Assembly (NCBI GenBank): GCA_016182565.1
Contig: JACPGI010000009.1
Location: 19,154 to 83,153, forward strand
DNA from: a candidate division WWE3 bacterium
GTDB taxonomy: Bacteria; Patescibacteriota; WWE3; UBA101185; UBA10185
Reading direction: 5' to 3'
DNA length: 64,000 nt
Part shown: positions 24,746 through 64,000 of the stretch, in pieces
How the letters are laid out: the number at the start of each line of letters is the position of its first letter
Position numbering within the stretch: the stretch's first letter is position 1
Notes under the pieces: model-generated
Database searches by the model: none
The model's input: the letters and a program-made list of their open reading frames with translations, nothing else
What the model was told of the DNA's origin: nothing
Translations under genes and position numbers: made by a program

Positions 24746-25711
24746 ATGATGATTACTCCCACTTATAATACAGGAAGTCATATTATTGAAAAATACCAGT
24801 TTTTGCACCACTTTTTGCCCCATCCCGACACCAAAAAAAGGGCAAAACTGCTTCAACACAACGCGATGGCAACATACGCGCTTGTATTAGTACTTTTTAT
24901 TGGCGTATTTCGTATAACGCCAAGATTTGCACCGGGTATTTTAGGTTACAGTTCTGATATCAGTGTTTCAGATCTTCTAAAAAGTACCAACAAATATAGA
25001 AATGAAAATGGTCTAAAGACCTTAAGACTTAACACGGCCCTCACAAAAGCTGCCGAGAGTAAAGCGCGACATATGTTTGCCCAAAACTATTGGGCTCATG
25101 TAGCACCAGATGGTACAACACCTTGGGATTTTATACTTGAATCTAAATATGATTATTCCTATGCCGGTGAAAATTTAGCTAAAAATTTTGATAGTTCAAA
25201 CGATGTAGTTAAGGCTTGGATAAATTCCCCGTCCCATAGAGAAAATCTACTTGGTGCAAATTATGACGAAATAGGGTTTGCTGTAGTGAACGGAATATTA
25301 GATGGTTATGAAACTACCCTTGTTGTTCAAATGTTTGGTAAACCACGTGCATCAATTCCTATTGCTAGCGAGGAAGAGGAGACAAAGCTTTTGACTGCAT
25401 ACGAATCAAAGTCTGTTGTTGAAGCACCATCAACCCAATCCGCCAATTATCCAGTTTTAGAAAAGCCAAGTTTGAGTTTTGTACCTTCAAGGTCTGAAGA
25501 AGTACTGCCTGCTGTTGATGTGACTACAGCCTCTAAATCTATTACCTTAGTAGTTTCTGCATTTCTATTTATACTTCTTGCCTTAGATGTTTGGTATACC
25601 AAAAGAAAAGCAATTCCTCGCCTTTCGGGAAACGTTTTTGCACATATAACATTTTTGGTAATGACTGTAGTTGGGGTTTGGTTTGCACTAACTCCGGGAA
25701 TAGTTTTATAA
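24746..25711 (+). CDS. CAP/SCP (PR-1-like, YkwD-type) domain protein with N- and C-terminal TM anchors
   Basis: CAP motifs (YRNENGLKTL...HMFAQNYWAHV...GENLAKNF...WINSPSHRENLL...IGFAVV). Hydrophobic C-terminal tail. Confidence 0.7.
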   Translation: MMITPTYNTGSHIIEKYQFLHHFLPHPDTKKRAKLLQHNAMATYALVLVLFIGVFRITPRFAPGILGYSSDISVSDLLKSTNKYRNENGLKTLRLNTALTKAAESKARHMFAQNYWAHVAPDGTTPWDFILESKYDYSYAGENLAKNFDSSNDVVKAWINSPSHRENLLGANYDEIGFAVVNGILDGYETTLVVQMFGKPRASIPIASEEEETKLLTAYESKSVVEAPSTQSANYPVLEKPSLSFVPSRSEEVLPAVDVTTASKSITLVVSAFLFILLALDVWYTKRKAIPRLSGNVFAHITFLVMTVVGVWFALTPGIVL

Positions 25712-25712
25712 G

Positions 25713-25964
25713 ATGAAATTAAAAGAAACTTTACATATTTTTATATTAGTAGTTGGTCTAAGTCTTGTAGTTTTTTTTATGTATTTTTTTAGATTTAACA
25801 GGGATGCTCAGATTTTTACTGGACTTTTTGGTTGCATTTATTATACTGTCTGGGGCATAATTCACCATGCGTTGAAAGAACGGCTAAGTAGAACAATTGT
25901 CTTAGAGTATGTTTTATTAGGGCTTGTTGTGTTTTTGCTTTTGCTAATGTCTTTCACGTTTTAA
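25713..25964 (+). CDS. Small 2-TM membrane protein (possibly DUF2304-like partner of the downstream GT2)
   Basis: 83 aa with two hydrophobic helices. Directly precedes and is nearly contiguous with the GT2-GtrA gene. Confidence 0.45.
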   Translation: MKLKETLHIFILVVGLSLVVFFMYFFRFNRDAQIFTGLFGCIYYTVWGIIHHALKERLSRTIVLEYVLLGLVVFLLLLMSFTF

Positions 25965-25968
25965 AAAT

Positions 25969-27093
25969 ATGAAAGTTGTAATTGTAGTTCCTACATATAA
26001 CGAGGGTGATAATATTGGGCAACTTCTACCTATATTATTGGAAGAATTTAAACAAATCCCAAACCATAAATGTCATGTACTTGTAGTTGATGGCAATTCT
26101 ACAGATAAAACTCAGGAGATTGTTCAAAGTTTTGCAGATGAAAACCCAAATATTCATTTACTTGTTGAAACTGAGAAATCCGGTATAGGGGGAGCTTACG
26201 TGAAAGCTTTTAAAAAAGCCATGCACGAAATGGGTGCTGAGGTTGTGATGGAAATGGATGCAGATATGCAACATGACCCAAGGGATGTAAAACGATTTTT
26301 GGCGGAAATTGATAATGGTTTTGATTATGTGATAGGTTCCAGATATGTTGACGGTGGGGCAATACCACAGGAATGGGGTTTTCACCGGAAATTTCTAAGT
26401 TGGGGCGGTAGCATGTTTGCAAGAATTATGCTTGGGATGTGGAGTATTAAGGATTTTACAACTGGTTATAAAGCAACTCGAGTTAAAGGTATTTTAGATA
26501 GACTCGATTTAGATAGTGTTTTGTCTCAAGGTTTTGCTTATAAAATTGATTTTTTGTATAAGACATTTAAGCTTGGAGCAAAGATAAAAGAAATACCTAT
26601 TACCTTTGGACTTAGAGATCGAGGTGATTCTAAGATTGAAAGGACTACAGCACTCGATTCGCTAAAAGTTGTTTTAACAATCAGGTACAAAGAAAACAGC
26701 AGTTTCTTTAAATTTTTGATTACCGGGTTAATAGGCATGTTTTTTGATTTTGCCTTTGCCAATTTACTTAAATTTTCCGGTATTCGCTCAGGGTTTTCTG
26801 CAAGTCTGGCAGCACTTATTGCTATGCTTGTGACCTTTACCCTAAATAATAATTGGTCCTTTAAATCAAGTGCTATAAAGGGAGTTTCAGATATATCAAG
26901 AAATTTGGTTGTGTATATTTTTTCATCTTCGCTTCCGATAATCTTAAGATTTTTTATTGTAGAGGTACTAATCGTTTCATTTGGTGATAATTTTATGATT
27001 TATAATCTAGCTTTAATAGTCAGTATAGTCATAGGAATTGCTTGGAATTATTTTGTATATAGTAAGTTTATATGGAAAAAGACAAATGGTTGA
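25969..27093 (+). CDS. GT2 polyprenol-phosphate sugar synthase (Dpm1/Ppm1/CsbB-like) fused to a C-terminal GtrA-like 4-TM domain
   Basis: VIVVPTYNEGDNI, VLVVDGNSTDKT, DADMQHDP (DxD) and a GtrA-like hydrophobic C-terminus (FLITGLIGMFFDFAFANLL...). Confidence 0.8.
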   Translation: MKVVIVVPTYNEGDNIGQLLPILLEEFKQIPNHKCHVLVVDGNSTDKTQEIVQSFADENPNIHLLVETEKSGIGGAYVKAFKKAMHEMGAEVVMEMDADMQHDPRDVKRFLAEIDNGFDYVIGSRYVDGGAIPQEWGFHRKFLSWGGSMFARIMLGMWSIKDFTTGYKATRVKGILDRLDLDSVLSQGFAYKIDFLYKTFKLGAKIKEIPITFGLRDRGDSKIERTTALDSLKVVLTIRYKENSSFFKFLITGLIGMFFDFAFANLLKFSGIRSGFSASLAALIAMLVTFTLNNNWSFKSSAIKGVSDISRNLVVYIFSSSLPIILRFFIVEVLIVSFGDNFMIYNLALIVSIVIGIAWNYFVYSKFIWKKTNG

Positions 27094-27847
27094 TTTTTCT
27101 ATTATCATCCCAGCCTATAACGAAGAGTCTGGTATTACAAGTTCATTAACCCAAGTTCTAAACTTCATGCGTGGGTACAATGATAATTTTGAAATTATCG
27201 TTGTAGACGATGGAAGCAGTGATAGAACTTGTGAAAAAGTGGAAGCCTATGCCCGCGAAAATCAAGTAGTATCAGTTGTGAGAAATCCACATAAAGGTAA
27301 GGCCTTTGCGATAAGAACCGGTATTCTAATGTCATCTGGAAAATATGTTTTGATGGCAGATGCTGATATGGCAACGCCTATCGAAGAGTTAAAAAGACTT
27401 ATGGTTTGGATAACGGACCACAACTTTGACATTGTAATTGCCTCTCGAGAGGGAATCGGAGCAAAAAGATTTAATGAGCCATTAATGCGCCATATTATGG
27501 GCCGTGTTTTTAATACAATTATAAGATTTGTTAGTATTCAAGATTTTCAAGACACTCAATGTGGTTTCAAAGTTTTCAAGGGTGATGTGGCAAAAAATAT
27601 TTTTGGGAAACTTTTGTTATTTGGTGCAGATTCTCCAAACATTAAAAACGCGCGCGTTTCTGCTTTTGATGTTGAAGTTCTAATTGTTGCAAAAAGACTT
27701 GGGTACAGAACAAAAGAAGTTCCTGTGAGTTGGACTTATGTACCGACAGTTCGTGTAAATCCATTTCGAGATTCCCTACTAAATCTTTTAGATGTGCTAA
27801 AAGTAAAACTAAACGATATTTTAGGTAAATACTCTAATTATAATTAA
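27086..27847 (+). CDS. GT2 glycosyltransferase (polyprenol-phosphate glycosyltransferase-like, soluble)
   Basis: FSIIIPAYNEE, IIVVDDGSSDRT and MADADMATP. The start overlaps the upstream stop (ATGGTTGA). Confidence 0.8.
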   Translation: MVDFSIIIPAYNEESGITSSLTQVLNFMRGYNDNFEIIVVDDGSSDRTCEKVEAYARENQVVSVVRNPHKGKAFAIRTGILMSSGKYVLMADADMATPIEELKRLMVWITDHNFDIVIASREGIGAKRFNEPLMRHIMGRVFNTIIRFVSIQDFQDTQCGFKVFKGDVAKNIFGKLLLFGADSPNIKNARVSAFDVEVLIVAKRLGYRTKEVPVSWTYVPTVRVNPFRDSLLNLLDVLKVKLNDILGKYSNYN

Positions 27848-27883
27848 GTATTATGTTGGGCAGTTGCCCTAGAAAGGTGTTCT

Positions 27884-29242
27884 ATGAAGCTTTGCGTAAT
27901 AGGCACAGGTTACGTAGGGTTAGTTGGTGCGGCTGTATTTGCGGATTGGGGTAACGAGGTAATCGGCGTTGATATTGATGAGGCAAAAATTAAAAAAATT
28001 GAACGCGGGATAATGCCAATTTATGAACCGGGACTTTCAGATTTAGTTTTGTTAAATGTTAAACAAAAAAGACTTTCATTTACAACAAATTTAAAAAAAG
28101 GTATTCAGGGAGCTGAGATTGTTTTTATTTGTGTTGGGACACCTCAGAGTAAGTCAGGTTCAGCTGATTTAAGTCAGGTGTGGCAGGTATCAGAAAACAT
28201 TGGTAAATTTATGACAGATAAAATATATAAAGTTATAGTTACAAAAAGTACAGTTCCAGTAGGCACAAATGAAAAAGTCAAACAAATATTAAAAAAGTTT
28301 GCCCCAAAGAGTGCAAAATTTGATGTTGCATCAAACCCAGAATTTTTGCGTGAGGGGTGTTCAGTAAAAGATATGCAAAAGACAGAGCGCACTGTAGTTG
28401 GCACCGAGACTGAACGGGCAATGAAAGTAATGCGTAAGTTTTACGAACATTTAAATATGCCAATTGTTGAATGTGATTTAAGATCTTCAGAGATGATTAA
28501 GTATGCATCAAATGCTTTTCTTGCAACCAAAATTTCTTTTATAAATGAAATGGCACAGCTTTGTGAAAAAGCGGGAGCTGATGTTGTGAAGGTAGCAGAA
28601 GGGATGGGTCTTGATAGTCGTATTGGGTCTAAGTTCTTAAATGCTGGGATAGGTTATGGAGGTGCATGTTTTCCAAAAGATGTATCGGCTCTTAGAAGAA
28701 CTTCACTTGATTTTGCTTATGACTTTGCTTTGCTTCAGGGGGTCATGCGAGTAAACGATGTTCAAAAGCACTATTTTGCAAACAAAATCTACGAAGAATT
28801 TGGGGGCGAAAACTTAAGTGGACTTACCTTTGCCTGTTTGGGGCTTGCCTTCAAAGGTGACACTGATGACACTAGAGAGTCTGTTGCAATAAAAATTATT
28901 CATTTGCTGCGTGGAAGAGGTGCTCAGGTAAGAGTATATGATCCAGAGGCTATGGAAAACGCTAAAAGAGAACTTGGTACCAGTAGTGTATTTTTTGCTA
29001 AAGATAAATACGAAGTTTTAAAGGGGGCGGATGCAATGCTTATTCTTACAGAATGGGGAGAGTTTAAGGATATGGACCTCACAAAGGTTAAAAAGCTTCT
29101 TAAAAAGCCGTTGATTTTTGATGGGAGAAATCTTCTTGATAAAAAAGTGGTCGAGGCTAATGGTTTTAAATACCTTGCAATTGGTCGAAAAACTGGTTCG
29201 CAAAAGCAAAAGGCCCCAGATTTTAGGGCAGCAATCCTTTAG
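27884..29242 (+). CDS. ugd: UDP-glucose 6-dehydrogenase (nucleotide-sugar dehydrogenase family)
   Basis: Rossmann GTGYVG. Catalytic Cys motif GGACFPKD. UDPG_MGDP_dh C-terminal domain. Confidence 0.85.
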   Translation: MKLCVIGTGYVGLVGAAVFADWGNEVIGVDIDEAKIKKIERGIMPIYEPGLSDLVLLNVKQKRLSFTTNLKKGIQGAEIVFICVGTPQSKSGSADLSQVWQVSENIGKFMTDKIYKVIVTKSTVPVGTNEKVKQILKKFAPKSAKFDVASNPEFLREGCSVKDMQKTERTVVGTETERAMKVMRKFYEHLNMPIVECDLRSSEMIKYASNAFLATKISFINEMAQLCEKAGADVVKVAEGMGLDSRIGSKFLNAGIGYGGACFPKDVSALRRTSLDFAYDFALLQGVMRVNDVQKHYFANKIYEEFGGENLSGLTFACLGLAFKGDTDDTRESVAIKIIHLLRGRGAQVRVYDPEAMENAKRELGTSSVFFAKDKYEVLKGADAMLILTEWGEFKDMDLTKVKKLLKKPLIFDGRNLLDKKVVEANGFKYLAIGRKTGSQKQKAPDFRAAIL

Positions 29243-29274
29243 TACTACGATACTAAAAAAGCTATAATACAACT

Positions 29275-30453
29275 ATGAAGAAAAGAGTATTGGTTTTTGT
29301 ACCTGAGTTCCCCGTTATTTCCGAGACTTTCATTGAAAGGGAACTTTCTGAGCTTGCAAAAAGTCAAAAAATCGAATTAAAAATTTATGCCTTGAAAAAA
29401 GGTGCTGATTTTAGCGACCAAGCCTTATCTTTGCATACAGAGTACATAAATCTATCATTTACTGATATTCTTTTCGGAAAACTATATTATCTTTTTAAGA
29501 AGCCTTCCAAGTTTTTCGAATGTTTACGCATTGCTACCCCAAAGAGATATTTCCTATTTGTAAAAAGCTTAGGTTATGCAAAGATTTTTTCTAAATTTAA
29601 CCCCGATATCATTTATTCTCATTTTATGTCTACACCATCTACCATTGGATTATTTGCCTCAATTTTACTTGAAAAAGAATTTGCAATTTCAGCTCATGCG
29701 AGAGATGTTTTTGAATATCCCGATCTACCAAGAGAAAAATTAGAGCGAGCAAAATTTATAACTATTTGTAACAAAACAGCGTACAAGCACTTTTTAAACT
29801 TATGTGTTGGTATGTCTACATCCAAAGTTCATCTTCTGTTTCATGGTATCCCGAAATTTATAAATTCCTTTTCTGCAAATAAATCAAACCATGGCGGAAA
29901 TATGAAGGAAATTCTTTTTATTGGCAGGCTAGTTGAAAAAAAAGGTGTAAGGTATTTACTTGAATCTATAGTTTGGTTAAAAGAGAATCTAAAAGAATAC
30001 CCTCTAACCTTAAATATAATAGGTAGTGGCCCATTGATGACAAGTCTTAAAGATATCTCTAAAAAGTTAAAAATTGAGGATCATGTGGTGTTTACTGGGG
30101 AACTTCCGTTTGAAAAAACAATAACTTATTTTCAAAGCGCAAATATTTATGTTCAGCCAAGTATAAACATGAATTCCGGTGATTCTGATGGGATACCAAA
30201 TACCTTAATTGAGGCGGCTATGGCAAGTCTTCCTATAGTTACAACTGATGCAGGAAGTATTGCTGATTTTTTAGATGAAACAAATGCTTTGGTTGTTTCA
30301 CAAAAAGACTCAATTGCCTTGGCTAAAGCAATAAGAAACTTAATTTTGGATGATAATTTAGCACAGAGGTTAGCAAAGAAGGCTAATGAAAAAGCATTAG
30401 TTATGTTTGATATTAAAAATAATGTCGAGAAAATTGAAAGACTTCTAGTTTAA
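29275..30453 (+). CDS. GT4 glycosyltransferase (GT-B)
   Basis: EKKGVRYLLESI...GSG...GIPNTLIEAAMASLPIVTTDAGS pattern (E-x7-E region). Confidence 0.8.
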   Translation: MKKRVLVFVPEFPVISETFIERELSELAKSQKIELKIYALKKGADFSDQALSLHTEYINLSFTDILFGKLYYLFKKPSKFFECLRIATPKRYFLFVKSLGYAKIFSKFNPDIIYSHFMSTPSTIGLFASILLEKEFAISAHARDVFEYPDLPREKLERAKFITICNKTAYKHFLNLCVGMSTSKVHLLFHGIPKFINSFSANKSNHGGNMKEILFIGRLVEKKGVRYLLESIVWLKENLKEYPLTLNIIGSGPLMTSLKDISKKLKIEDHVVFTGELPFEKTITYFQSANIYVQPSINMNSGDSDGIPNTLIEAAMASLPIVTTDAGSIADFLDETNALVVSQKDSIALAKAIRNLILDDNLAQRLAKKANEKALVMFDIKNNVEKIERLLV

Positions 30454-30469
30454 AAGCGAGCTTTAATAT

Positions 30470-36600: not shown

Positions 36601-36610
36601 GTTTAGCTGC

Positions 36611-46647: not shown

Positions 46648-46659
46648 GGCCCTCAAAAT

Positions 46660-52035: not shown

Positions 52036-52040
52036 CAAAT

Positions 52041-52766: not shown

Positions 52767-52769
52767 TAA

Positions 52770-57123: not shown

Positions 57124-57139
57124 TCTATATAATAGTTTT

Positions 57140-58822
57140 ATGCATTGGCTAATCTATTCGTACAATGATATGGCAGCAATATTTGTGGGGGGTTTGGAAG
57201 TTTTACTTTCCAAAGATTTTTTTCCAACAATAGCAACAAGCTCGCAGCCTAGTTCAATAGATTTTTTAAGTAACTTTATAAACCTAATACTTTTTAAAGC
57301 TTTTTACCCTGTAACTGTAGCAAATATTTTAATGATTCTTTACTTTGCTTTAGCATTTATATTTTCGTTTATCCTATTTAAAAACTTGGTTTCAAATAGG
57401 TTATTAGCTTTAGTTTTTGCTTTGTTTTATGGAGTTAGCAACCACTTTTTGTATCGGATAATTTCTTTTACCCCAAATATTTATCAGACTTTCTTCTTTC
57501 CACTTACATTTTTCTTGCTATTAAGGAAGACAAAACCAATATTTTTGAGTTTTCTTACTGTATTTTTCTTTACTTTTAGTAGTTATTACGCTTATTTTGT
57601 TTTTATTTGTATTGTGCTTTGGTACTGTTTTGATGAATTATTTAGTTTAGTCTCGTTAAAACAAAAATTTATAACTTCTATAAAAAATATTGCAATATTT
57701 TCTATTGGCACAATCTTAGGTGTATTTCTGATTTACACACCAGTCATTATTCAATCTCTTCCAACTTTTAAAAATGTAAATACCAATAATGTGACAAAAG
57801 AAGTTCAGGTTATGGAAAAAACGTATCGCCCTATTGAGGATTTTTATAATTTAAGTCTTCGACCGTGGTACTTTTTTATTCCACCACAAAAATCTTTATA
57901 TTTTGCGGAATTATCAAAAGATTTATATAAAAAAATAGCAAGTTCCAATTATTATTTAGCAGATGATTACACAGAAGATGAGATGGGTGGTGTGTATCTG
58001 GGGTGGCATTTTTTGCTTGGTGCTGCTTTTGTTTTAGCCATTGCAGGTCTCTCTTTTGGAAAAAAGCCTAAACCTAAGATAACAGAATACTTTGGTAATA
58101 TTGTTGCAAATAGAAAGTTGATAATTAAACTAACGCTTATTACACTTGCTATCTTAGCTATTAGTCTTCCACCATCTTTTACTATATCAAATATTACATT
58201 TTACACCCCGTCCTACATCATCTACTTAATACTTCCAGTCTTTCGCACCACTGTAAGGTGGGCTATTGTTATTTACCTTGTTGTACTTATATTAAATTTA
58301 TTTTTGATGGTAGATTTATATAATTTAATTCGTTTAAGAGTAACAAAATTTATTTTTGTAATCTCATTATTAGTTGTAACTTTTGTTGTTCTTTCAGTTA
58401 AACTACCATTTATAGATACTAGCACCCCACCAGAAGACATCGCATTTTTAAATACTGTTTCATCTAAAGATTTTTCCTATGCTGTTTATCCAAAAGGGGA
58501 TTACCATTCCATATTTTGGATCTTAAATCATAAGAAAAAACTTTTAAATCCAGTCAATTTTATAAATAGAACTACTGGATTTAAATCAAATGAATTTTCA
58601 GATAATTTAGTAACAGAGAAAGGTGTTAATAAGTTGAAAGAATTAGGGGGGCAGTATCTTGTTTTAAAAAAGGAGGAGATTTCGGAAAATAAGTTAAAGA
58701 ATATAAACATAATTAACCCCTTTATAACTTCTATAAGTTCATTGGAAAGTTTTTTTGAAAGATTTGGGACTAAAGTGTTTGACTCGCAGCACACAGCAAT
58801 TTACTACCTTAACTCCCTATAA
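57140..58822 (+). CDS. Uncharacterised polytopic membrane protein (560 aa)
   Basis: Hydrophobic helices throughout. No motif I recognise. Confidence 0.45.
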   Translation: MHWLIYSYNDMAAIFVGGLEVLLSKDFFPTIATSSQPSSIDFLSNFINLILFKAFYPVTVANILMILYFALAFIFSFILFKNLVSNRLLALVFALFYGVSNHFLYRIISFTPNIYQTFFFPLTFFLLLRKTKPIFLSFLTVFFFTFSSYYAYFVFICIVLWYCFDELFSLVSLKQKFITSIKNIAIFSIGTILGVFLIYTPVIIQSLPTFKNVNTNNVTKEVQVMEKTYRPIEDFYNLSLRPWYFFIPPQKSLYFAELSKDLYKKIASSNYYLADDYTEDEMGGVYLGWHFLLGAAFVLAIAGLSFGKKPKPKITEYFGNIVANRKLIIKLTLITLAILAISLPPSFTISNITFYTPSYIIYLILPVFRTTVRWAIVIYLVVLILNLFLMVDLYNLIRLRVTKFIFVISLLVVTFVVLSVKLPFIDTSTPPEDIAFLNTVSSKDFSYAVYPKGDYHSIFWILNHKKKLLNPVNFINRTTGFKSNEFSDNLVTEKGVNKLKELGGQYLVLKKEEISENKLKNINIINPFITSISSLESFFERFGTKVFDSQHTAIYYLNSL

Positions 58823-58843
58823 AACTGCTATAATCTCGAGACT

Positions 58844-59203
58844 ATGGGTACCGCAGTCTTTATAATATTAACATTGAATTTTTTTATAATCTTATTTCCA
58901 CTTAGGTTAAAATCTGTTTTTGTTGTTTCAAACTTAGTAATTTTACTCCTTTTATATAAACTTGTTGGAGTAGATTTTATTATGAATTTTCTTATTCTTT
59001 TAGTACTATCTTGGTCGATACTGATCTTGTCTAGTTTAAGCAGAATTCAGATATATAGTGTCGGTGGTTTTTTCATATTGCTAGCTGGTGTTTTTATGGT
59101 ATTTGAAATTGAGGCACCAGCTAGGATTTTTGTCTCCATGGGTATCGCACTACTGATGTATTCAATTTTTAAAGATATCATATATGCAAAGATTAATGAT
59201 TAA
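58844..59203 (+). CDS. Small 4-TM membrane protein
   Basis: 119 aa, almost entirely hydrophobic. Confidence 0.4.
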   Translation: MGTAVFIILTLNFFIILFPLRLKSVFVVSNLVILLLLYKLVGVDFIMNFLILLVLSWSILILSSLSRIQIYSVGGFFILLAGVFMVFEIEAPARIFVSMGIALLMYSIFKDIIYAKIND

Positions 59204-61325
59204 GTTAACCTATTCTCTGCTTTTTATTATTTTTTTTAGTACACTTTTCGTTGGTGTTTGCTCTGCTAGATCAAAAATCGAACATTACCAATATATGTTT
59301 TTAACTTGGGGTTTTAGAGCGGATGTGTTAAATACTACGGTTGTCGAAGACACTAAACTTTTATCAAACGATGTTAAAGTAAAGCCAAAACATCTTATAC
59401 TCCTTTCTTCCCAATACAACGATTTGATACGGGGTACCGAGCAAGAAGCAAAATATAACAGTTTTACAAGCATAGTTCTTATATGCGATGAGAGGTTGTT
59501 ATTAGATAAGGTTTTAATCTGTGATAGGGATAGTGTATTCCCAGCTATAAGTACCTTAAACGTTTTAGAAGTATCACAAGATGTAAAAATATTACATGGG
59601 GATTTTAATACCAAAACTTTTCTTGTAGTGCCTGAAACTACACTTACAATACCTTTCAAACAATCACCCCTTTCTATATACATAAGTGCTTTCACAAAAA
59701 ATACAGATGTTAAATTTGATAAATCAAGTATATTTATAAAAGCTTTTCAAGGGTTAACTGAGACTGCGGCCTTGGAATTCACGGTGTTTTGTTTAATTTT
59801 GTCTTTTCTTACTTTTATTCTAGCAAACATTTTTTTAAAAAATGACTTTAAGGTAGATTTGAGAACTTTCCTAAATTCAGCAAAAAATCTTTTATATGTA
59901 ATTCAGAAATTTCTTGAAAATTACAAATGGATGTCTATATATCTATTTCTAATACTTTTATTTATCTATATTCCTGTAATCACAACGATTTCTTATCGAG
60001 ACGTTTCTGGTTTTGATATTAATTACATTTTAAGTTATATAATCGATAACTTAGATCCAAAGAAGGGCGTTATGTATATAGGTAGTGCAAGTACGGCAAG
60101 ACTTGCTTTGGTAGTTTACAACTATCTTATATTCGCAGTTCTTACTTTAATATTATTACCTTTTGGTATTTCTTATTTAAAGGCTGCTTCACTTAAAATT
60201 TTAGATTTAGAGGTTGATTCAAGACTTTCTAAATTTATGATACCAACCATATCGTTTGTAAGTATACTTTGTTTATTAGCATTACCAGTTAAATATGCTT
60301 ATTTATTTTTAAGTGTGTTGGGACTTTATCAAGTATTTTTTTATTTAAAAAGAAAACCCATTTCATTATATTATACGAATAAACAAAAGGTATTTTTAGT
60401 TGTTGGATACATTGCTTTTATAATTTTTGGTAAAGTTATACAAGCCCCCCTAGAGACATTTTTAAGTAAAAGTTCATCTAAGTTACTGTTTCCACTTGAA
60501 GATCGTATTGTATTTTTGCCATTTATTAAACCAAACGATGGGGGTGTTATTTTTGAAGATTTCTATGTCAGTAAAGAGGTTTCTGTAATGGTTGATGAAT
60601 ACGGAATAAATTACCCCGGATATAAAAAAATTGTAAACACCAGTATGCAGAATTTCGATAAGGATAAAAGTTATCTGATATCTGGTGGTAATATTGGTGA
60701 CTTTCTTACCTATGCCTCAGAGAATAAAAATCTTCTTGATACTTTAACTTCCAAAGACTATACCAATGTTTTTTATATTCAAAACGCGCCTATTGGGCCA
60801 AATTCAAAAATGAGTTTGGAATTCACACTTGATTGTGCGTTGGATGCTCCATTCTATAATATAAAGCTAAAAGCCAGGGATTTTGTAAGGCCTGCTCAGA
60901 CAATTATAGAAAAATCAGAGATTCTTGATTTCCCCGGGTGTTATTTGGGAGACAAGGAAGTTATATATAATGCACCATTAAACCCGAAGTATATTGCAGA
61001 CAGTGCGTTTTTTGAAATTATTCAGGAAGGACTGCCAATTAAAAATGTAAGATTAATACTTGATAATAAAAGTATTCCTGTGAAGTTTCTTAATTATGGT
61101 GAAAAAAATAAAATCTATGCCATTGGGACAAAACCTAATTTTGATACATTATACATTTATTCTTCCAACATAGATTCTGATTGGGTTAGTAAGTTAGACA
61201 CATCTGGAAACTCATATAATATCTCTAGCTTAATTAATGATTTAAAAACTAAAGATTTACTTGAAAATCCATTTGTAATCTGGCCAACACATGATCAAAA
61301 AGCCATATTAAAAAATGATTTATGA
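59184..61325 (+). CDS. Uncharacterised membrane protein: signal peptide, about 180-aa extracytoplasmic domain, central 8-10 TM bundle, about 280-aa C-terminal soluble domain
   Basis: Hydrophobicity pattern read from the translation. No motif I recognise. Confidence 0.45.
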   Translation: MQRLMIKLTYSLLFIIFFSTLFVGVCSARSKIEHYQYMFLTWGFRADVLNTTVVEDTKLLSNDVKVKPKHLILLSSQYNDLIRGTEQEAKYNSFTSIVLICDERLLLDKVLICDRDSVFPAISTLNVLEVSQDVKILHGDFNTKTFLVVPETTLTIPFKQSPLSIYISAFTKNTDVKFDKSSIFIKAFQGLTETAALEFTVFCLILSFLTFILANIFLKNDFKVDLRTFLNSAKNLLYVIQKFLENYKWMSIYLFLILLFIYIPVITTISYRDVSGFDINYILSYIIDNLDPKKGVMYIGSASTARLALVVYNYLIFAVLTLILLPFGISYLKAASLKILDLEVDSRLSKFMIPTISFVSILCLLALPVKYAYLFLSVLGLYQVFFYLKRKPISLYYTNKQKVFLVVGYIAFIIFGKVIQAPLETFLSKSSSKLLFPLEDRIVFLPFIKPNDGGVIFEDFYVSKEVSVMVDEYGINYPGYKKIVNTSMQNFDKDKSYLISGGNIGDFLTYASENKNLLDTLTSKDYTNVFYIQNAPIGPNSKMSLEFTLDCALDAPFYNIKLKARDFVRPAQTIIEKSEILDFPGCYLGDKEVIYNAPLNPKYIADSAFFEIIQEGLPIKNVRLILDNKSIPVKFLNYGEKNKIYAIGTKPNFDTLYIYSSNIDSDWVSKLDTSGNSYNISSLINDLKTKDLLENPFVIWPTHDQKAILKNDL

Positions 61326-61403
61326 TTAAGATCTAAAACAAATAAATTCTTAAAATTCTAAGTTTAAACTGCTTATCAAAATTTATTGTAGAATCAAGAT
61401 GTA

Positions 61404-62837
61404 ATGCAAAAGCAATCAATTTTTTACAAACCGATTTTTATTTTTCTTTTAGCATTTTGTGTATTTTTTATAAGTTGGCTAGTGATTTATAAAATGGGAG
61501 TCAACACACTGGCTATTCAATCCGAAGATACTATACCGGCACTTTTTTTGCCTATTGAGATTTTAAAAACAAAATCCCTTTATTTGGATAAATACTATCC
61601 TATGATGATAGAAAGATATCCTCAACCAGACGATAAAAAACAAGAGCGAGGGTTAACTCCGTTTTATTTAAAAAAAGTGGGAATACATTACCTTTCAGCA
61701 TTTCCGATAATAACCCCACTTTTATCTCTTCCGGTGTATATAATACCCGTTTATTTTAATCTCCCTGTAACATGGGACAATTTAATTTTACTTGGGCATA
61801 TTTCCGGAGCTTTTATTGTTGCGCTTTCGGGTGTGATCTTTTTTTCAATAACTACAAAACATCTTCAACTGGAAAATAAAAAAGCATACATACTTACAAG
61901 CATTTATCTTTTTGGAACTATAAATTTTTCTCTTTTGTCTCAAGCAATGTGGCAACATGGCGCAGTTGAGTTATTCTCTCTTTTGGCAATTTATCTACTT
62001 TTTGAAAAAAGATGGCTTCTAATGGCTTTTTCTTTAGGTTTTGCAGTATTGGCAAGACCAACTGCCGGTTTAATAATTCCCTTTTTAGGTCTTTTAGTGG
62101 TACAGATATCTCTTAATGATATTTTTGCAAGGACATACGAAACTAATGCCAAAAAATATTTAGATATTTTGAAAACAATTTTTAACATTGGTTTTAAATT
62201 TGTTTTAGGAATATTTTTACCTTTTGCATTTTTCTTTTGGTATACCGAAAAGTTTTATTTAGGTGTGTCAAACAATGGCTATGCGACTCAATTTTTGTCA
62301 AGCTGGCTTTCACCTTTCCCCCAAGGTTGGCTTGGTATGTGGTTATCTCCGAGTAAAGGCATACTAATATATTCACCGGTTATAGTTTTTGCGTTAGTTG
62401 GTTTATGGCTTGTATTAAGGCTTGGCAATTGGCGAAAAGCCGAGAATTTTAAATATATAGTTTTTGGTTGCATATTTCTGGTTCACACTTTGGTTTTAAG
62501 TATTTGGAAGCATTGGTATGGGGGTTGGGGATTTGGTTATAGGATGGCGTCAGATACCATTCCATTTATGATTTTCTGTATTGCACCATTTTTAAATTCT
62601 TCATTTTACGAAAAGAGTAAGGCATGTAAAAAAGTATTTTGGATTACAGTTGTTTTTTCCATTTTAGTACAGATTTTTGGAATTATTTTTTTTGATGGAA
62701 TATGGCATGCCGCTTACGATAGGGGATTTAGAGACACTGCTTGGTTATGGAGTATACAAGATTCCGAATTTGTATTTAACATTAGACGAATTTTAGTTAA
62801 ATTTGGGTTTTTGGTGAAAGCTTGTCCTCAGTGTTAA
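61404..62837 (+). CDS. GT-C-like polytopic membrane glycosyltransferase (DUF2029/GT87-like), ending in CPQC
   Basis: FSLGFAVLARPTAGLIIPFLGLLVV and multiple TM helices. C-terminal VKACPQC. Confidence 0.5.
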   Translation: MQKQSIFYKPIFIFLLAFCVFFISWLVIYKMGVNTLAIQSEDTIPALFLPIEILKTKSLYLDKYYPMMIERYPQPDDKKQERGLTPFYLKKVGIHYLSAFPIITPLLSLPVYIIPVYFNLPVTWDNLILLGHISGAFIVALSGVIFFSITTKHLQLENKKAYILTSIYLFGTINFSLLSQAMWQHGAVELFSLLAIYLLFEKRWLLMAFSLGFAVLARPTAGLIIPFLGLLVVQISLNDIFARTYETNAKKYLDILKTIFNIGFKFVLGIFLPFAFFFWYTEKFYLGVSNNGYATQFLSSWLSPFPQGWLGMWLSPSKGILIYSPVIVFALVGLWLVLRLGNWRKAENFKYIVFGCIFLVHTLVLSIWKHWYGGWGFGYRMASDTIPFMIFCIAPFLNSSFYEKSKACKKVFWITVVFSILVQIFGIIFFDGIWHAAYDRGFRDTAWLWSIQDSEFVFNIRRILVKFGFLVKACPQC

Positions 62838-62846
62838 TATCAACTT

Positions 62847-64000
62847 ATGGCTGTACAAATAAAATTGAAAAATTTGGACCAGTCCCAAAATATTGAGGAA
62901 ATAGTAAAGAATGCATTATTTGATGTGTCTAAAATTACACAAGTTGATGAGTTTTCTTCTGTTCCACCAATTACAAACCAGAAGTTAAATATAATTTGTC
63001 TTTCAAATCAACAATGGGATTATCCATTTCTTACTAATAAGCGCCATATTATGGAGCGCATGGGCAAACTTGGCCACAATGTTTTATTTGTGGATCCGCC
63101 TATAAATACTGGGAGGCTGTTTTTTCGCCAAATAGTTCGTGGTCAGTGGCCTTTTAAAAGATTAATCACTAGGACCTATAGACAAGGGAGTGTTTTAGTC
63201 TACTCACCTTTGAAACTAATTCCAAATGATAAAATTACTACATCACAGCAGGTAGAGAAAATAAATGCTCTTGCAATAAGCCACTTCGATCCAAACGCAA
63301 AAACCATCCTTTGGATTTATCATGTAGAAATTCATGGTCTTCCATACATTTTGGAAAATATAGCTCATGATTTACTAGTCTATGATTGTGTAGATAATTA
63401 CACAGCATTTCCTTCTCGAAGCAGCTTTTATTCAGCAACAGTTTCCAAAGAGGAGTTAGTTGAGCAAGAGCGAATGCTTACACAAAAAGCAGATTTGGTG
63501 TTTGCTTCCGCACCAGGTTTGGTAAGTAAATTAAAAAATTATCGGGATGAGGTATATTTTACCCCAAATGTTGGAGATTATGAAAAATTTAAAGATATAC
63601 AAAGGGTCAAGGAAAAAATAAAACAAAATTTGGACAAAGATTTATTACCAAAAGATCTTGCCACAATAAGAAGGCCCAGAATAGGATTTACCGGTGCTGT
63701 TGATGAGTATAAGTTTGACGCTTCTCTTGTTGCTAAAATTGCAAAAGATAACCCAAATTATAATTTTGTAATAATTGGGCCGTTCGGACTTAAGGATAAA
63801 GAGGGATCAAAAGAGGAGATTGGGCTTGCAGGACTTGATAACGTCCATTTTTTGGGGGCAAGACCGTACACCATAATTCAAGATTATTTTGCTGGATTTG
63901 ACGCTTTTATTATCCCATTCCAACTAAATGATTATACTGTTGGTGGTTGTTTTCCTGTGAAATTTCACGATGCGTTAGCTGCTGGCCTTCCTACAATTGT
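62847..64000 (+). CDS. GT4-family glycosyltransferase, 5' partial (runs off the window end)
   Basis: ATG at 62847. The N-terminal GT-B half (ICLSNQQWDYPFLTNKRHIMERMGKLGHNVLFVDPP) resembles the TuaH/capsule-type GT4 N-domain. The reading frame is open to position 64000. Confidence 0.55.
   Translation, partial: MAVQIKLKNLDQSQNIEEIVKNALFDVSKITQVDEFSSVPPITNQKLNIICLSNQQWDYPFLTNKRHIMERMGKLGHNVLFVDPPINTGRLFFRQIVRGQWPFKRLITRTYRQGSVLVYSPLKLIPNDKITTSQQVEKINALAISHFDPNAKTILWIYHVEIHGLPYILENIAHDLLVYDCVDNYTAFPSRSSFYSATVSKEELVEQERMLTQKADLVFASAPGLVSKLKNYRDEVYFTPNVGDYEKFKDIQRVKEKIKQNLDKDLLPKDLATIRRPRIGFTGAVDEYKFDASLVAKIAKDNPNYNFVIIGPFGLKDKEGSKEEIGLAGLDNVHFLGARPYTIIQDYFAGFDAFIIPFQLNDYTVGGCFPVKFHDALAAGLPTI

What the first reader, a model, noticed from the sequence alone, without database searches (positions are those of the whole stretch)
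24746..64000. Glycan-assembly island of at least 39 kb built around polyprenol-phosphate-sugar-dependent GT-C enzymes: a candidate extracytoplasmic glycosylation system
From the CAP-domain gene to the window edge, about 37 consecutive + strand genes overlap or nearly abut. The cytoplasmic stage comprises Ugd (UDP-GlcA), six GT2, five GT4-type and CgeB-like transferases, and four methyltransferases. The transport stage comprises three Wzx-like flippases and an LPG-synthase-TM flippase-like protein. The periplasmic stage comprises a Dpm1/CsbB-like GT2-GtrA lipid-sugar donor synthase, three PMT/ArnT-like GT-C enzymes, DUF2079, a DUF2029-like GT-C and several uncharacterised polytopic proteins. 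The pairing of a polyprenol-P-sugar synthase with PMT-like GT-C enzymes is the logic of protein O-mannosylation (actinobacterial Ppm1/Pmt) and of teichoic-acid glycosylation (CsbB/YfhO). The methyltransferases suggest O-methylated sugars. No priming phosphoglycosyltransferase, Wzy/Wzz or ABC exporter is seen in the window. The product could therefore be a glycosylated surface protein (S-layer or pilin) or a lipid-linked glycan, not a classical capsule. The island continues beyond position 64000.
Basis: partly seen in the sequence, partly recalled or inferred. Interest (0 to 1): 0.7.

Follow-up and report, generated by a model that had tools for sequence, protein, structure and literature searches.

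The report
Cell-envelope glycan locus of a WWE3 bacterium
The second half of the window is most of a roughly 48 kb chromosomal gene cluster of an uncultured WWE3 (Patescibacteria) bacterium that probably builds surface sugar polymers partly outside the membrane, using nine membrane enzymes of the GT-C fold, three of them from unclassified families. It also has the ordinary starter enzyme, which lies just past the window edge.

Summary
From 25969 to the window edge there are 29 tightly packed + strand genes, almost all glycan-related. They include a full-length homologue of archaeal dolichol-P-mannose synthase, a second ArnC/GtrB-like GT2, Ugd, GT4 and GT2 enzymes, methyltransferases, three Wzx, a flippase-like protein, DUF2079 and three PMT-like proteins.

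Structure prediction shows that three "uncharacterised polytopic proteins" (52770, 54850, 57140) have the GT-C fold. 61404 is PMT_2-like, not DUF2029-like.

The claim that a priming transferase and Wzy are missing is a window-edge artefact. The same contig continues for 8.8 kb with three more GT4 genes, a 1034-aa Wzy_C::ArnT-like fusion, a WbaP/PglC-type phosphoglycosyltransferase and DUF4012.

The locus is modular. The string 61404–GT4–GT4–GT4–fusion is conserved in nearly all related metagenome loci. The methylation/AftD-like block occurs without it elsewhere.

GC3 matches the neighbouring housekeeping genes and no tRNA is present, so nothing indicates mobility.

Best reading: an undecaprenyl-diphosphate Wzx/Wzy-type backbone pathway combined with several polyprenol-monophosphate-sugar/GT-C glycosylation systems, as in lactococcal or mycobacterial wall glycans. 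The acceptor is unknown. It is a new variant of a known kind, of moderate interest.

The parts
24746..25711 (+). CAP-domain membrane protein with an N-terminal TM segment, an extracytoplasmic CAP domain, a 70-aa linker (34% Ser/Thr/Pro) and two C-terminal TM segments. It is a boundary gene and its membership in the locus is not shown.
   Evidence: Pfam CAP 68.8 bits. TM scan. Linker composition. A 257-bp gap separates it from the next gene. The best promoter-like site in the region lies at 24712-24740.
25969..27093 (+). Polyprenyl-phosphate hexose synthase: a GT2 catalytic domain fused to a 4-TM GtrA/DPMS-type domain, with a DAD motif at residues 97-99.
   Evidence: Pfam Glycos_transf_2 plus GtrA_DPMS_TM. 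Full-length match to P. furiosus DPMS 5MLZ, E 6.7e-42. Best NCBIfam hits are AglJ, PgfS, ArnC and Dol-P-hexose transferase, all below their cut-offs.
27038..27847 (+). Second polyprenyl-phosphate glycosyltransferase-like GT2 with no TM segment and a DAD motif at 108-110. The true start is probably the ATG at 27086.
   Evidence: Pfam GT2 113 bits. Top PDB sequence hits are DPMS 5MLZ (7e-19), ArnC (3.5e-15) and GtrB sll0501 (1.3e-14). The best NCBIfam hit is ArnC, 73.7 bits against a cut-off of 529.
27884..29242 (+). UDP-glucose 6-dehydrogenase (Ugd/TuaD type), which supplies UDP-glucuronic acid.
   Evidence: All three UDPG_MGDP_dh domains are present, at 214, 123 and 124 bits.
29275..32893 (+). 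Three consecutive cytoplasmic GT4 glycosyltransferases (29275-30453, 30470-31711, 31712-32893).
   Evidence: Pfam Glycos_transf_1 at 110.6, 132.2 and 87.0 bits, plus Glyco_transf_4 N-terminal domains in the second and third (30470, 31712).
32868..35090 (+). DUF2079 polytopic membrane protein (740 aa) with a large C-terminal extracytoplasmic part. It is presumed to be a GT-C-type transferase.
   Evidence: Pfam DUF2079 109.6 bits. Seven or more TM segments. The GT-C assignment of DUF2079 rests on my recollection of the Pfam clan, not on a test here. The only hint here is a weak cross-hit of one 61404-family member to DUF2079.
35077..36600 (+). Wzx-type (MOP superfamily) lipid-linked glycan flippase, first of three.
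   Evidence: Pfam Polysacc_synt_3 72.8 bits and Polysacc_synt 60.5 bits. Ten or more TM segments.
36611..37549 (+). Flippase-like membrane protein of the LPG_synthase_TM / TIGR00374 type.
   Evidence: Pfam LPG_synthase_TM 141.4 bits. NCBIfam TIGR00374 'flippase-like domain' 65.8 bits, above its cut-off of 43.2.
37527..39245 (+). PMT_2-like GT-C enzyme, a paralogue of 40804, with a DTVNPD motif after TM1.
   Evidence: No Pfam hit. blastp against 40804 gives 28% identity over 470 aa, E 1.3e-32.
39211..40803 (+). PMT/ArnT-like GT-C enzyme with an IDEP motif at 39-42 after TM1.
   Evidence: Pfam PMT 39.9 bits (cut-off 22.7) and PMT_2 30.0 bits. Paralogous to the PMT part of the downstream fusion, E 2e-11. 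No direct PDB sequence hit.
40804..42486 (+). PMT_2-like GT-C enzyme.
   Evidence: Pfam PMT_2 26.9 bits, marginally above the cut-off of 26.1. Weak NCBIfam hit to Agl23.
42496..45049 (+). Two paralogous Wzx-type flippases (42496-43779, 43763-45049; 44% identical).
   Evidence: Pfam Polysacc_synt / Polysacc_synt_3. blastp E 1.6e-106.
45003..48866 (+). Cytoplasmic transferases: GT2 (45003), GT2 (45817), GT4 (46660) and the CgeB-like Glyco_trans_1_2 (47817).
   Evidence: Pfam. The same order recurs in L005 and in the JGI 178-kb contig.
48885..50956 (+). SAM-dependent methyltransferases: 48885 with one domain and 49475 with two tandem domains.
   Evidence: Pfam Methyltransf_11/23/12/25/31. 49475 gives two stretches per family.
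50992..52035 (+). GT2 with two C-terminal TM segments.
   Evidence: Pfam Glycos_transf_2 50.5 bits. TM scan.
52041..52766 (+). CmcI / rhamnosyl O-methyltransferase family enzyme, a sugar O-methylation candidate.
   Evidence: Pfam RMNT_CmcI 204.7 bits. NCBIfam rhamnosyl O-methyltransferase 169 bits against a cut-off of 400.
52770..54887 (+). GT-C-fold enzyme of an unclassified family. Its nearest structural neighbour is AftD. It has a helical membrane domain of a dozen or more helices, an invariant Asp32 in the first extracytoplasmic loop, a beta-rich C-terminal domain and a final TM helix.
54850..57123 (+). Paralogue of 52770 with the same architecture.
   Evidence: blastp 29% identity over 725 aa, E 2.9e-89. 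The pair is tandem also in L005 and in the JGI contig.
57140..58822 (+). GT-C-fold enzyme of a second unclassified family, remotely related to the 52770 family, with a C-terminal alpha/beta domain.
   Evidence: 306 cluster representatives at E<=1e-3. None of the 42 aligned members has a Pfam hit. hhalign against the 52770 family gives probability 90.6%, E 1.3e-6. AF2 pLDDT 92.0. Foldseek top 12 are all GT-C: STT3, DPY19, AglB, PglB, ArnT, AftA.
58844..59203 (+). 119-aa four-TM protein of unknown function. Its size and topology resemble small lipid-sugar flippases, but there is no sequence evidence for that.
   Evidence: No family hit. TM scan. A 119-129-aa gene sits at the same position in L006 and in the JGI contig.
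59184..61325 (+). 713-aa conserved membrane protein of unknown function, with two extracytoplasmic domains flanking about six TM segments and invariant cysteines.
   Evidence: No family hit. Homologues in 13 related loci. Alignment A4. No profile similarity to the GT-C families or to PDB sequences.
61404..62837 (+). PMT_2/GT39-like GT-C enzyme with an invariant SEDT motif at 40-43. It is the first gene of the conserved core.
   Evidence: More than 325 homologues at about 50% identity. 15 of 36 match PMT_2. Followed by the same four genes in 31/32 to 55/58 loci.
62847..64000 (+). GT4 glycosyltransferase cut by the window edge (451 aa on the contig). It is the second gene of the conserved core.
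   Evidence: Pfam Glyco_trans_1_4 and Glycos_transf_1. Full length in L001 11444-12799. Best NCBIfam hit is TuaH, 83 bits against a cut-off of 550.

Best explanation
The region is the first 38 kb of a roughly 48 kb chromosomal cell-envelope glycan locus. It runs from window 25969 to about 73.9 kb in window-equivalent coordinates. The organism is a candidate division WWE3 bacterium (Patescibacteria/CPR).

The locus appears to combine two kinds of lipid-linked chemistry.

(1) A diphosphate route. A small WbaP/PglC-type phosphoglycosyltransferase primes undecaprenyl phosphate. GT4 enzymes extend the unit in the cytoplasm, with Ugd supplying glucuronic acid. A Wzx flips the unit. The Wzy_C domain of a 1034-aa fusion protein polymerises it or ligates it to its acceptor.

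(2) Monophosphate routes. Two GT2 enzymes of the DPMS/ArnC/GtrB kind load sugars onto polyprenyl phosphate. Candidates for exporting these donors are the GtrA-like TM domain, the TIGR00374 flippase-like protein and the extra Wzx proteins. If the route follows the lactococcal PSP scheme, short, partly O-methylated oligosaccharides are built on these lipid carriers before export. Nine GT-C-type membrane enzymes then transfer the sugars to the growing glycan outside the membrane.

The locus is modular:
- A conserved core: 61404, three GT4 genes and the Wzy_C::PMT_2 fusion, with GT4, the phosphoglycosyltransferase and DUF4012 downstream.
- A methylation/AftD-like block (42.5-57.1 kb), with the genes 57140, 58844 and 59184 following it.
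- A Ugd/DPMS/PMT block (26.0-42.5 kb).

Shown here: the gene families, the predicted folds, the synteny and the flanking genes. Inferred: which sugars are used, which module feeds which, the direction of transfer and the acceptor.
For: - Organism and contig.
- Families inside the window.
- The DPMS-like enzyme matches 5MLZ over its full length. The best solved homologues of the second GT2 are all polyprenyl-P glycosyltransferases.
- Flank: GT4, GT4, Wzy_C+PMT fusion, GT4, Bac_transf, DUF4012.
- The phosphoglycosyltransferase matches the WbaP catalytic domain at 5e-32 and PglC at 2e-25. It scores 203 bits against EPS_sugtrans. It keeps the DEMPQ and PRP motifs.
- Fusion residues 475-627 match ArnT.
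- GT-C folds of 52770 and 57140. Their remote kinship. 61404 is PMT_2-like.
- Core synteny: GT4 55/58, GT4 43/44, GT4 40/40, fusion 31/32. L002, L006 and the JGI contig agree.
- The methylation/AftD-like block occurs without the core in L005 and at a separate place on the JGI contig.
- In L002 the cluster ends at DUF4012, followed by RecO, DinB and an aminoacyl-tRNA synthetase.
- Known precedents for exactly this mixture: three-component systems (PMC11127046) and lactococcal PSP assembly on C55-P with a Wzx flippase and GT-C transferases (PMC10821137).
- WWE3 genomes were already noted to be unusually rich in glycosyltransferases (PMC3812714).
Against: - No biochemical or expression data exist for this organism.
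- No ligase to peptidoglycan (LCP), no chain-length regulator and no nucleotide-sugar genes other than Ugd are seen in the 73 kb available.
- Whether Wzy_C is a polymerase, a ligase or a protein O-oligosaccharyltransferase cannot be told from sequence.
- The modules occur apart in other genomes, so they may make separate products instead of one decorated polymer.
- The true end of the locus in this genome was not read. It is inferred from a relative at 45-60% identity.
- The GT-C status of DUF2079 was not tested here.
- Two conserved membrane proteins (58844, 59184) remain unexplained.
Confidence: 0.6

Rival explanations
1. The main product is a glycoprotein. The Wzy_C domain would act as a PglL/PilO/WsaB-type O-oligosaccharyltransferase that moves the finished Und-PP-glycan onto Ser/Thr/Tyr of a pilin, an S-layer protein or another surface protein. 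The PMT-like GT-C enzymes would O-glycosylate proteins from polyprenyl-P-hexose, as in actinobacterial Ppm1/Pmt or Streptococcus mutans Pgf.
For: - PMT (GT39-type) Pfam matches above threshold in 39211. A DPMS-type synthase is present. PgfS and AglJ are among the best NCBIfam matches of 25969.
- From my own knowledge, the Wzy_C family includes protein O-oligosaccharyltransferases.
- CPR bacteria are rich in type IV pili (PMC6744442).
- The adjacent CAP protein has a linker rich in Ser, Thr and Pro.
- A glycosylated S-layer was already suggested for WWE3.
Against: - No pilin, S-layer or other clearly Ser/Thr-rich substrate gene lies in the 73 kb read.
- Two of the GT-C enzymes carry C-terminal beta-rich domains. 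Their nearest structural neighbour is AftD, which acts on polysaccharide.
- Nine GT-C enzymes and about fifteen cytoplasmic transferases are more than known protein-glycosylation systems need.
- No sequence feature separates an oligosaccharyltransferase from a polymerase or ligase here.
Confidence: 0.2
2. The locus is several independent pathways that merely sit side by side. The conserved core with the phosphoglycosyltransferase would make an ordinary Wzx/Wzy-type exopolysaccharide or teichuronic-acid-like wall polymer. The upstream blocks would make unrelated products, for example a lipoglycan extended by GT-C enzymes on a glycolipid anchor as in mycobacterial LM/LAM.
For: - The blocks are found apart in other genomes.
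- There are three Wzx genes, enough for three separate exports.
- The core resembles the tua operon in parts: Ugd/TuaD, a PGT/TuaA-like enzyme, Wzx/TuaB, Wzy_C/TuaE, and weak TuaH, TuaC and TuaG similarities.
- DUF4012 is linked to CPS/EPS clusters in bifidobacteria.
Against: - In this genome the blocks abut with overlaps or gaps of at most 78 bp. No terminator-like site lies in any intergenic gap.
- GT-C genes (57140, 61404 and the PMT_2 half of the fusion) are embedded in the conserved core itself. The core therefore also needs a monophosphate-sugar donor, and the only such synthases seen are in the upstream block.
- The Tua matches are far below the equivalog cut-offs.
Confidence: 0.3
3. 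It is a horizontally acquired, strain-variable genomic island comparable to O-antigen or capsule serotype loci.
For: - Overall GC falls from about 36% upstream to about 30% at 50-62 kb.
- Block content differs among related genomes.
Against: - GC3 is the same as in the housekeeping genes (0.244-0.268 against 0.255). The GC drop therefore reflects the amino-acid composition of membrane proteins.
- No tRNA was found and no Rfam element. No integrase or transposase appeared among the annotated ORFs.
- The core is conserved at 40-60% identity across many relatives.
Confidence: 0.07

Closest known systems
Three-/four-component extracytoplasmic glycosylation systems (GtrA/GtrB/Gtr*, GacI/J/K/L, CsbB/GtcA/YfhO; Mann & Whitfield 2016; Kelly et al. 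2024, PMC11127046)
   Same: A GT2 polyprenyl-phosphate sugar synthase, a flippase candidate and a GT-C-fold transferase encoded together. They act on a glycan whose backbone is made by a Wzx/Wzy-type route.
   Different: Here there are two synthases, five or more flippase candidates and nine GT-C-type genes in one locus. Three of the GT-C proteins belong to families with no Pfam model. None of the activities has been tested.
Lactococcal rhamnan/PSP cell-wall polysaccharide assembly (WpsA/B, WpsC-F, Wzx WpsG, GT-C WpsH/WpsJ; PMC10821137)
   Same: An oligosaccharide built on a monophosphate lipid started by a GT2, extended by cytoplasmic transferases, flipped by a Wzx-type protein, and polymerised and attached by GT-C enzymes. 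This explains blocks that have Wzx, GT2 and GT4 genes but no phosphoglycosyltransferase.
   Different: No rhamnan genes (rml, ABC transporter) and no WpsB/GacJ-like activator were recognised. There is no sequence-level orthology. The organism belongs to a different phylum.
Mycobacterial arabinogalactan/LAM assembly (Ppm1, AftA-D, Emb, PimE, Mpt)
   Different: Identity is only 6-11% and there is no DUF3367/AftD Pfam match. The protein is 705 aa, against about 1,400 aa for AftD (my recollection; the solved chains matched were 1,250-1,312 residues). No decaprenyl-phosphoarabinose genes (UbiA-type DPPR synthase, DprE1/2) are present.
Bacillus subtilis teichuronic acid operon tuaABCDEFGH
   Same: The same set of part types: phosphoglycosyltransferase, Wzx, Ugd, a Wzy_C-family membrane protein, GT4 and GT2 enzymes. 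The best NCBIfam hit of 62847 is TuaH, and TuaC and TuaG are among the weaker hits of 64754 and of 25969/27038.
   Different: All scores are far below the equivalog cut-offs (83 against 550, 65 against 550, 47 against 400). There is no TuaF. The tua operon has no GT-C enzymes and no polyprenyl-P-sugar synthase.
ArnC/ArnT lipid A aminoarabinose pathway
   Same: Ugd, an ArnC-like GT2 and ArnT-like (PMT_2) GT-C enzymes. Fusion residues 475-610 match ArnT 5EZM at 1.2e-15.
   Different: No ArnA, ArnB, ArnD or ArnE/F were found. According to Kantor et al. 2013, WWE3 bacteria lack lipid A biosynthesis genes.

Membership tests
Three-component extracytoplasmic glycosylation system | GT2 polyprenyl-phosphate sugar synthase (GtrB/DPMS/ArnC type) | tested here: met
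   25969 matches 5MLZ over its full length at 6.7e-42. The top solved hits of 27038 are DPMS, ArnC and GtrB. Both carry a DAD motif.
Three-component extracytoplasmic glycosylation system | Dedicated flippase for the lipid-monophosphate sugar (GtrA, SMR, MATE or Wzx type) | tested here: inconclusive
   There are candidates only. These are the GtrA_DPMS_TM domain fused to 25969 (50.4 bits), the TIGR00374 flippase-like protein above its cut-off, three Wzx and the 4-TM protein 58844, which has no family hit. No assignment of donor to flippase is possible.
Three-component extracytoplasmic glycosylation system | GT-C-fold transferase with an acidic residue in the first extracytoplasmic loop | tested here: met
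   Predicted folds. PMT/PMT_2 matches. Invariant Asp32 (52770 family) and Glu41/Asp42 (61404 family).
Three-component extracytoplasmic glycosylation system | Demonstrated transfer from lipid-P-sugar to a defined acceptor | not testable with these tools
   Needs biochemistry.
Wzx/Wzy-dependent polysaccharide pathway | Priming polyprenyl-phosphate phosphoglycosyltransferase | tested here: met
   L001 19916-20548, outside the window. Bac_transf. WbaP 5e-32 and PglC 2e-25. EPS_sugtrans 203 bits over the catalytic domain.
Wzx/Wzy-dependent polysaccharide pathway | Wzx flippase | tested here: met
   Three Polysacc_synt proteins. A further one sits beside the fusion in L002 and L006.
Wzx/Wzy-dependent polysaccharide pathway | Wzy polymerase | tested here: inconclusive
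   A Wzy_C domain occupies the N-terminal half of the 1034-aa fusion. The family also holds ligases and O-oligosaccharyltransferases. No solved homologue was detected for this half.
Wzx/Wzy-dependent polysaccharide pathway | Chain-length regulator (Wzz/PCP) and export or ligation partner (LCP, WaaL, OPX) | tested here: not met
   None was found among the genes of window 24.7-64 kb and L001. DUF4012 and 59184 are unassigned.
Protein O-mannosylation (Ppm1/Pmt, GT39) | Polyprenyl-P-mannose synthase plus a PMT-family GT-C with a loop-1 Asp-Glu | tested here: met
   25969. 39211 scores PMT 39.9 bits against a cut-off of 22.7, with IDEP at 39-42. Sugar specificity was not tested.
Protein O-mannosylation (Ppm1/Pmt, GT39) | Identified Ser/Thr-rich secreted acceptor proteins | tested here: inconclusive
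   Only the CAP protein linker was found, with 34% Ser, Thr and Pro. No pilin or S-layer gene lies in the sequence read.
Teichuronic acid (tua) pathway | Equivalog-level matches to TuaC, TuaG and TuaH | tested here: not met
   TuaH 83.4 against 550, TuaC 65.1 against 550, TuaG 47.3 against 400.
ArnT/aminoarabinose pathway | ArnA, ArnB and ArnD alongside ArnC and ArnT | tested here: not met
   No formyltransferase/decarboxylase, aminotransferase or deformylase domains appear among the annotated genes.
AftD family (DUF3367 GT-C) | Sequence membership in the family model | tested here: not met
   No Pfam hit for 52770 or 54850 even at E<=10. No PDB sequence hit with the family profile. Only the fold is shared.
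   None of 36 family members matches GT87. Fifteen match PMT_2 and three match EpsG.
Mobile genomic island | Compositional deviation, flanking tRNA or repeats, integrase | tested here: not met
   GC3 equals that of the housekeeping genes. No tRNA. No integrase or transposase domains.

The most novel reading that the evidence does not exclude
The conserved string 61404–GT4–GT4–GT4–Wzy_C::ArnT-like fusion, together with the lineage-restricted GT-C families, may build the principal wall glycopolymer of WWE3-type Patescibacteria. Under this reading assembly happens largely outside the membrane, in a manner convergent with mycobacterial arabinogalactan. The 52770/54850 and 57140 families would found new CAZy GT-C families. 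The fusion would couple en bloc diphosphate-linked transfer with monophosphate-linked decoration in one polypeptide.
Probability: 0.25. Interest if true: 0.7.

Novelty: new variant of a known kind. Interest (0 to 1): 0.45.

Why it matters
Patescibacteria are ultra-small bacteria, mostly thought to live attached to other cells, and their envelope chemistry is essentially unknown. This locus, about 48 kb long, is a large investment for an organism of a group known for small genomes.

It offers concrete targets for study:
- A five-gene core conserved in the related metagenome loci examined.
- A previously undescribed fusion of a diphosphate-lipid glycan transferase domain with a monophosphate-lipid GT-C domain.
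- Two GT-C-fold families (three genes) that lack any Pfam model and had no hit among solved structures by sequence.

If these enzymes are active, they would extend the catalogue of GT-C glycosyltransferases. They would also provide handles for studying the surface that mediates host attachment and phage recognition. The general logic is already well established in Gram-positive and mycobacterial wall glycans, so the finding refines known biology and does not overturn it.

Tried and rejected
Homologues of 57140 were obtained with the search of protein representatives instead.
- The look-up of encoding contigs refuses proteins from fetched loci. The contig beyond window-equivalent 72.8 kb could therefore not be read. 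The end of the locus is inferred from L002.
- A metagenome scan with the DUF2079 protein found no relative. Conservation of the upstream block (26.0-42.5 kb) in other genomes thus remains untested.
- The genome-contig scan did not recover the source genome, only three relatives.
- Profile-to-single-sequence hhalign runs were uninformative. These compared the 61404 family with DUF2079, 39211 and 40804, and the 52770 family with the 57140 sequence.
- The 59184 family gave no signal against the GT-C family profiles or the PDB.
- The AFDB Foldseek library was unavailable.
- Promoter and terminator scans gave fewer sites than shuffled sequence, so they say little.
- Rfam and tRNA scans of the window were empty.
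- The aminoarabinose pathway, an equivalog-level tua operon, the DUF2029 call and a mobile island were each considered and rejected. The reasons are in the membership table.

Full report
**Origin and setting.** The window is AT-rich (30-38% GC). It has positive GC skew throughout, and nearly all genes are on the + strand. Two of its proteins are identical to NCBI entries HYV31_04070 and HYV31_04095 of a "candidate division WWE3 bacterium", on a 122,827-bp contig. The same sequence also occurs on a 74.8-kb Logan contig of run SRR12113420.

The first 24.7 kb encode housekeeping functions. These are a Clp ATPase, a release factor, SecDF, RecJ, two aminoacyl-tRNA synthetases, a D-Ala-D-Ala carboxypeptidase, a two-component pair, RecA, RecX, RNase Y, YmdB and an S51 peptidase. 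Co-directionality is therefore a property of this chromosome arm. It is not evidence that the glycan genes form one operon.

**Check of the observation.** Between 24746 and 64000 there are 30 genes, not about 37. Twelve junctions overlap and 15 have gaps of 0-36 bp. Two are larger: 257 bp after the CAP gene and 78 bp before 61404.

Pfam confirms the following:
- CAP (24746).
- A GT2 fused to the GtrA/DPMS TM domain (25969) and a second GT2 (27038).
- Ugd (27884).
- Three GT4 genes (29275, 30470, 31712).
- DUF2079 (32868).
- Wzx-type proteins (35077, 42496, 43763).
- LPG_synthase_TM (36611).
- PMT/PMT_2 proteins (39211, 40804).
- GT2 genes (45003, 45817, 50992) and a GT4 (46660).
- A CgeB-like Glyco_trans_1_2 protein (47817).
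- Methyltransferases (48885, and 49475 with two domains).
- A CmcI/rhamnosyl-O-methyltransferase family protein (52041).
- A GT4 cut by the window edge (62847).

37527 has no Pfam hit but is a clear paralogue of 40804 (E 1e-32). One family call (DUF2029-like) is wrong.

**The lipid-sugar donor stage.**
- 25969 aligns end to end with the solved dolichol-phosphate mannose synthase of Pyrococcus furiosus (5MLZ, E 6.7e-42, residues 1-365 against 23-368).
- Its best NCBIfam neighbours are AglJ, PgfS, ArnC and Dol-P-hexose transferase. All are lipid-monophosphate sugar synthases, but none reaches its cut-off, so the sugar is not defined.
- The best solved homologues of 27038 are DPMS, ArnC and GtrB. 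It has no TM segment.
- Both proteins keep a DAD motif.
- 36611 passes the cut-off of the NCBIfam "flippase-like domain" model TIGR00374.

**The uncharacterised polytopic proteins.** 52770 and 54850 are paralogues (E 3e-89). Their family comprises 54 detectable homologues. All come from metagenomes or Patescibacteria, and none has a Pfam domain. The family profile finds nothing among PDB sequences.

An AlphaFold model built on 39 sequences is confident (pLDDT 88.6, pTM 0.90). It shows a helical membrane domain of a dozen or more helices, a beta-rich C-terminal domain and a final TM helix.
- Foldseek places AftD first (E 4e-9), followed by PglB, STT3, AftA, AglB and ArnT.
- Asp32 is invariant and Glu33 nearly so. 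Both sit in the loop after TM1, where GT-C enzymes carry their catalytic acid.

57140 belongs to a larger family of 306 cluster representatives. It also lacks any Pfam or PDB sequence match. It is remotely related to the 52770 family (hhalign probability 90.6%, E 1.3e-6 over 422 columns). Its model (pLDDT 92.0) again matches only GT-C enzymes at the top: STT3, DPY19, AglB, PglB, ArnT and AftA.

61404 has more than 325 homologues at about 50% identity. Of 36 aligned members, 15 match PMT_2 (best E 9e-11), three match EpsG and none matches GT87.

Counting DUF2079, the three PMT-like genes, these four and the fusion described below, the locus encodes nine GT-C-type proteins. The GT-C assignment of DUF2079 rests on my recollection of the Pfam clan.

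58844 (119 aa, four TM segments) and 59184 (713 aa) remain unassigned.

**Beyond the window edge.** The Logan contig differs from the window at six bases in the 12.6 kb they share. It continues as follows:
- The rest of the GT4 gene 62847 (451 aa).
- A 94-aa ORF.
- Two GT4 genes.
- A 1034-aa protein with an N-terminal Wzy_C domain and a C-terminal PMT/PMT_2 domain.
- Another GT4.
- A 210-aa Bac_transf protein.
- The start of a 638-aa DUF4012 protein.

The Bac_transf protein matches the catalytic domain of WbaP (E 5e-32) and PglC (2e-25). It scores 203 bits against the EPS_sugtrans model and keeps the DEMPQ and PRP motifs. Fusion residues 475-627 match ArnT.

**Conservation and modularity.** A MAG labelled Saccharibacteria (L002, 45-60% identity) carries 52770-like, 57140-like and 61404-like genes. 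It also carries the GT4 genes, the fusion, a Wzx on the opposite strand, further GT4 genes, Bac_transf and DUF4012, followed directly by RecO, DinB and a tRNA synthetase. By analogy the locus here probably ends with DUF4012, near window-equivalent 73.9 kb.

A profile scan of JGI metagenomes gave 80 loci with a 61404 homologue. Where the flank is long enough, the next genes are:
- The 62847-type GT4 in 55 of 58 loci.
- The 64754-type GT4 in 43 of 44.
- The 65929-type GT4 in 40 of 40.
- The fusion in 31 of 32.

A 57140-type gene lies upstream in 26 of 46 loci, and a 59184-type gene in 11 of 46.

The methylation/AftD-like block recurs in L005 without the core. Its order is Wzx, GT2, GT2, GT4, CgeB-like, methyltransferases, GT2, CmcI, then the two AftD-like GT-C genes. 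On a 178-kb JGI contig the block is followed by 553-aa, 129-aa and 687-aa genes, and the 61404 core sits elsewhere on the same contig.

The window therefore shows a concatenation of exchangeable modules around a conserved core. It is not a foreign island. GC3 is 0.244-0.268 in the modules against 0.255 in the housekeeping genes. No tRNA or Rfam element is present.

**Mechanism.** The most economical reading joins two established schemes.

The first is a Wzx/Wzy-type route. It starts with the phosphoglycosyltransferase on undecaprenyl phosphate. GT4 enzymes extend the unit, a Wzx flips it, and the Wzy_C domain handles it.

The second is the multi-component extracytoplasmic glycosylation scheme: a GT2 lipid-monophosphate sugar synthase, a flippase and a GT-C enzyme. 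This scheme is known for O-antigen seroconversion, teichoic acid and rhamnan decoration, and pentofuranose addition (PMC11127046). It is also known in an expanded form in lactococcal PSP. There, a whole oligosaccharide is built on C55-P, flipped by a Wzx-type protein, and polymerised and attached by GT-C enzymes (PMC10821137).

The PSP precedent explains why the two upstream blocks have Wzx, GT2 and GT4 genes but no phosphoglycosyltransferase of their own. Ugd predicts glucuronic acid, and the CmcI-type and other methyltransferases predict O-methyl sugars. Both predictions are inferences. The beta-rich domains of 52770 and 54850 may bind the acceptor glycan, as the CBMs of AftD and EmbC do. 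This too is an inference.

**What remains open.** The acceptor (wall polymer, lipoglycan or protein) cannot be decided. No LCP ligase, chain-length regulator, pilin or S-layer gene lies in the 73 kb read. The Wzy_C family contains polymerases, ligases and protein O-oligosaccharyltransferases. Whether the modules cooperate on one polymer or make separate products is also open.

**Relation to earlier work.** Kantor et al. (PMC3812714) noted the abundance of glycosyltransferases in WWE3. They suggested polysaccharides, glycoproteins or a glycosylated S-layer. Méheust et al. (PMC6744442) listed DUF4012 among families enriched in CPR and linked it to capsule/EPS clusters.

I found no description of three things in the papers searched. 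These are the conserved five-gene core, the Wzy_C::PMT_2 fusion, and the two unclassified GT-C-fold families. The search was limited, so absence from it does not prove novelty.

**Verdict.** The "no initiator, no Wzy" premise is wrong. The locus is a dense, modular variant of known extracytoplasmic glycan assembly in an organism whose envelope is uncharted. Interest is moderate (0.45).

Noticed in passing
window 61145-61191 (L001 9742-9788): The only differences between the window and the Logan contig over 12.6 kb are six substitutions clustered within 47 bp, inside the C-terminal extracytoplasmic domain of 59184. This may be a microdiversity hotspot or a recombination patch.
   Followed up: no
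L003 (JAWABG010000068.1, 7.6 kb, GC 30%): A contig binned as a Woesearchaeota archaeon carries a full-length homologue of the Wzy_C::PMT_2 fusion (33% identity over residues 38-990). It also carries a 61404 homologue and a second Wzy_C-like stretch. This is either a mis-binned patescibacterial contig or transfer between episymbiont lineages.
   Followed up: partly
window 57140-58822: The 57140 family seems to lack the usual first TM helix of GT-C enzymes. The nearly invariant Asp10 lies in a short N-terminal segment before the first hydrophobic helix at about residue 42. The topology of this segment is unclear.
   Followed up: no
window 13762-14967 (- strand): This is the only substantial minus-strand gene in 64 kb. 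It encodes 401 aa with one N-terminal TM segment and no Pfam match, so it is probably a secreted or anchored protein of unknown function.
   Followed up: partly
window 18705-23226: The order recA-recX-rny-ymdB is, as far as I recall, the arrangement seen in Bacillota. Taken together with the absence of lipid A genes in WWE3 reported by Kantor et al., this would suggest a Gram-positive-like background.
   Followed up: no
window 12687-13760: An S11 D-Ala-D-Ala carboxypeptidase is present. An earlier WWE3 genome was reported to lack a complete identifiable peptidoglycan pathway (PMC3812714). This is worth checking genome-wide, because it bears on what the glycan is attached to.
   Followed up: no
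window 10768-11332 and 23575-24049: These are the two longest stretches without an ORF of 100 aa or more on the + strand. Neither gave a tRNA or an Rfam match.
   Followed up: partly
window 24712-24740: The best sigma-70-like site in 23-43 kb (TCGACA-17-TATAAT, 11 of 12 matches) ends 6 bp before the annotated ATG of the CAP gene. This implies either a leaderless transcript or a later start codon. Promoter-like sites overall are fewer than in shuffled sequence.
   Followed up: no
L001 12941-13225 and the flanking gaps: A 94-aa ORF with no family match sits in about 550 bp between the first and second core GT4 genes. In L002 the corresponding gap holds two minus-strand genes, one with TPR repeats.
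   Followed up: partly
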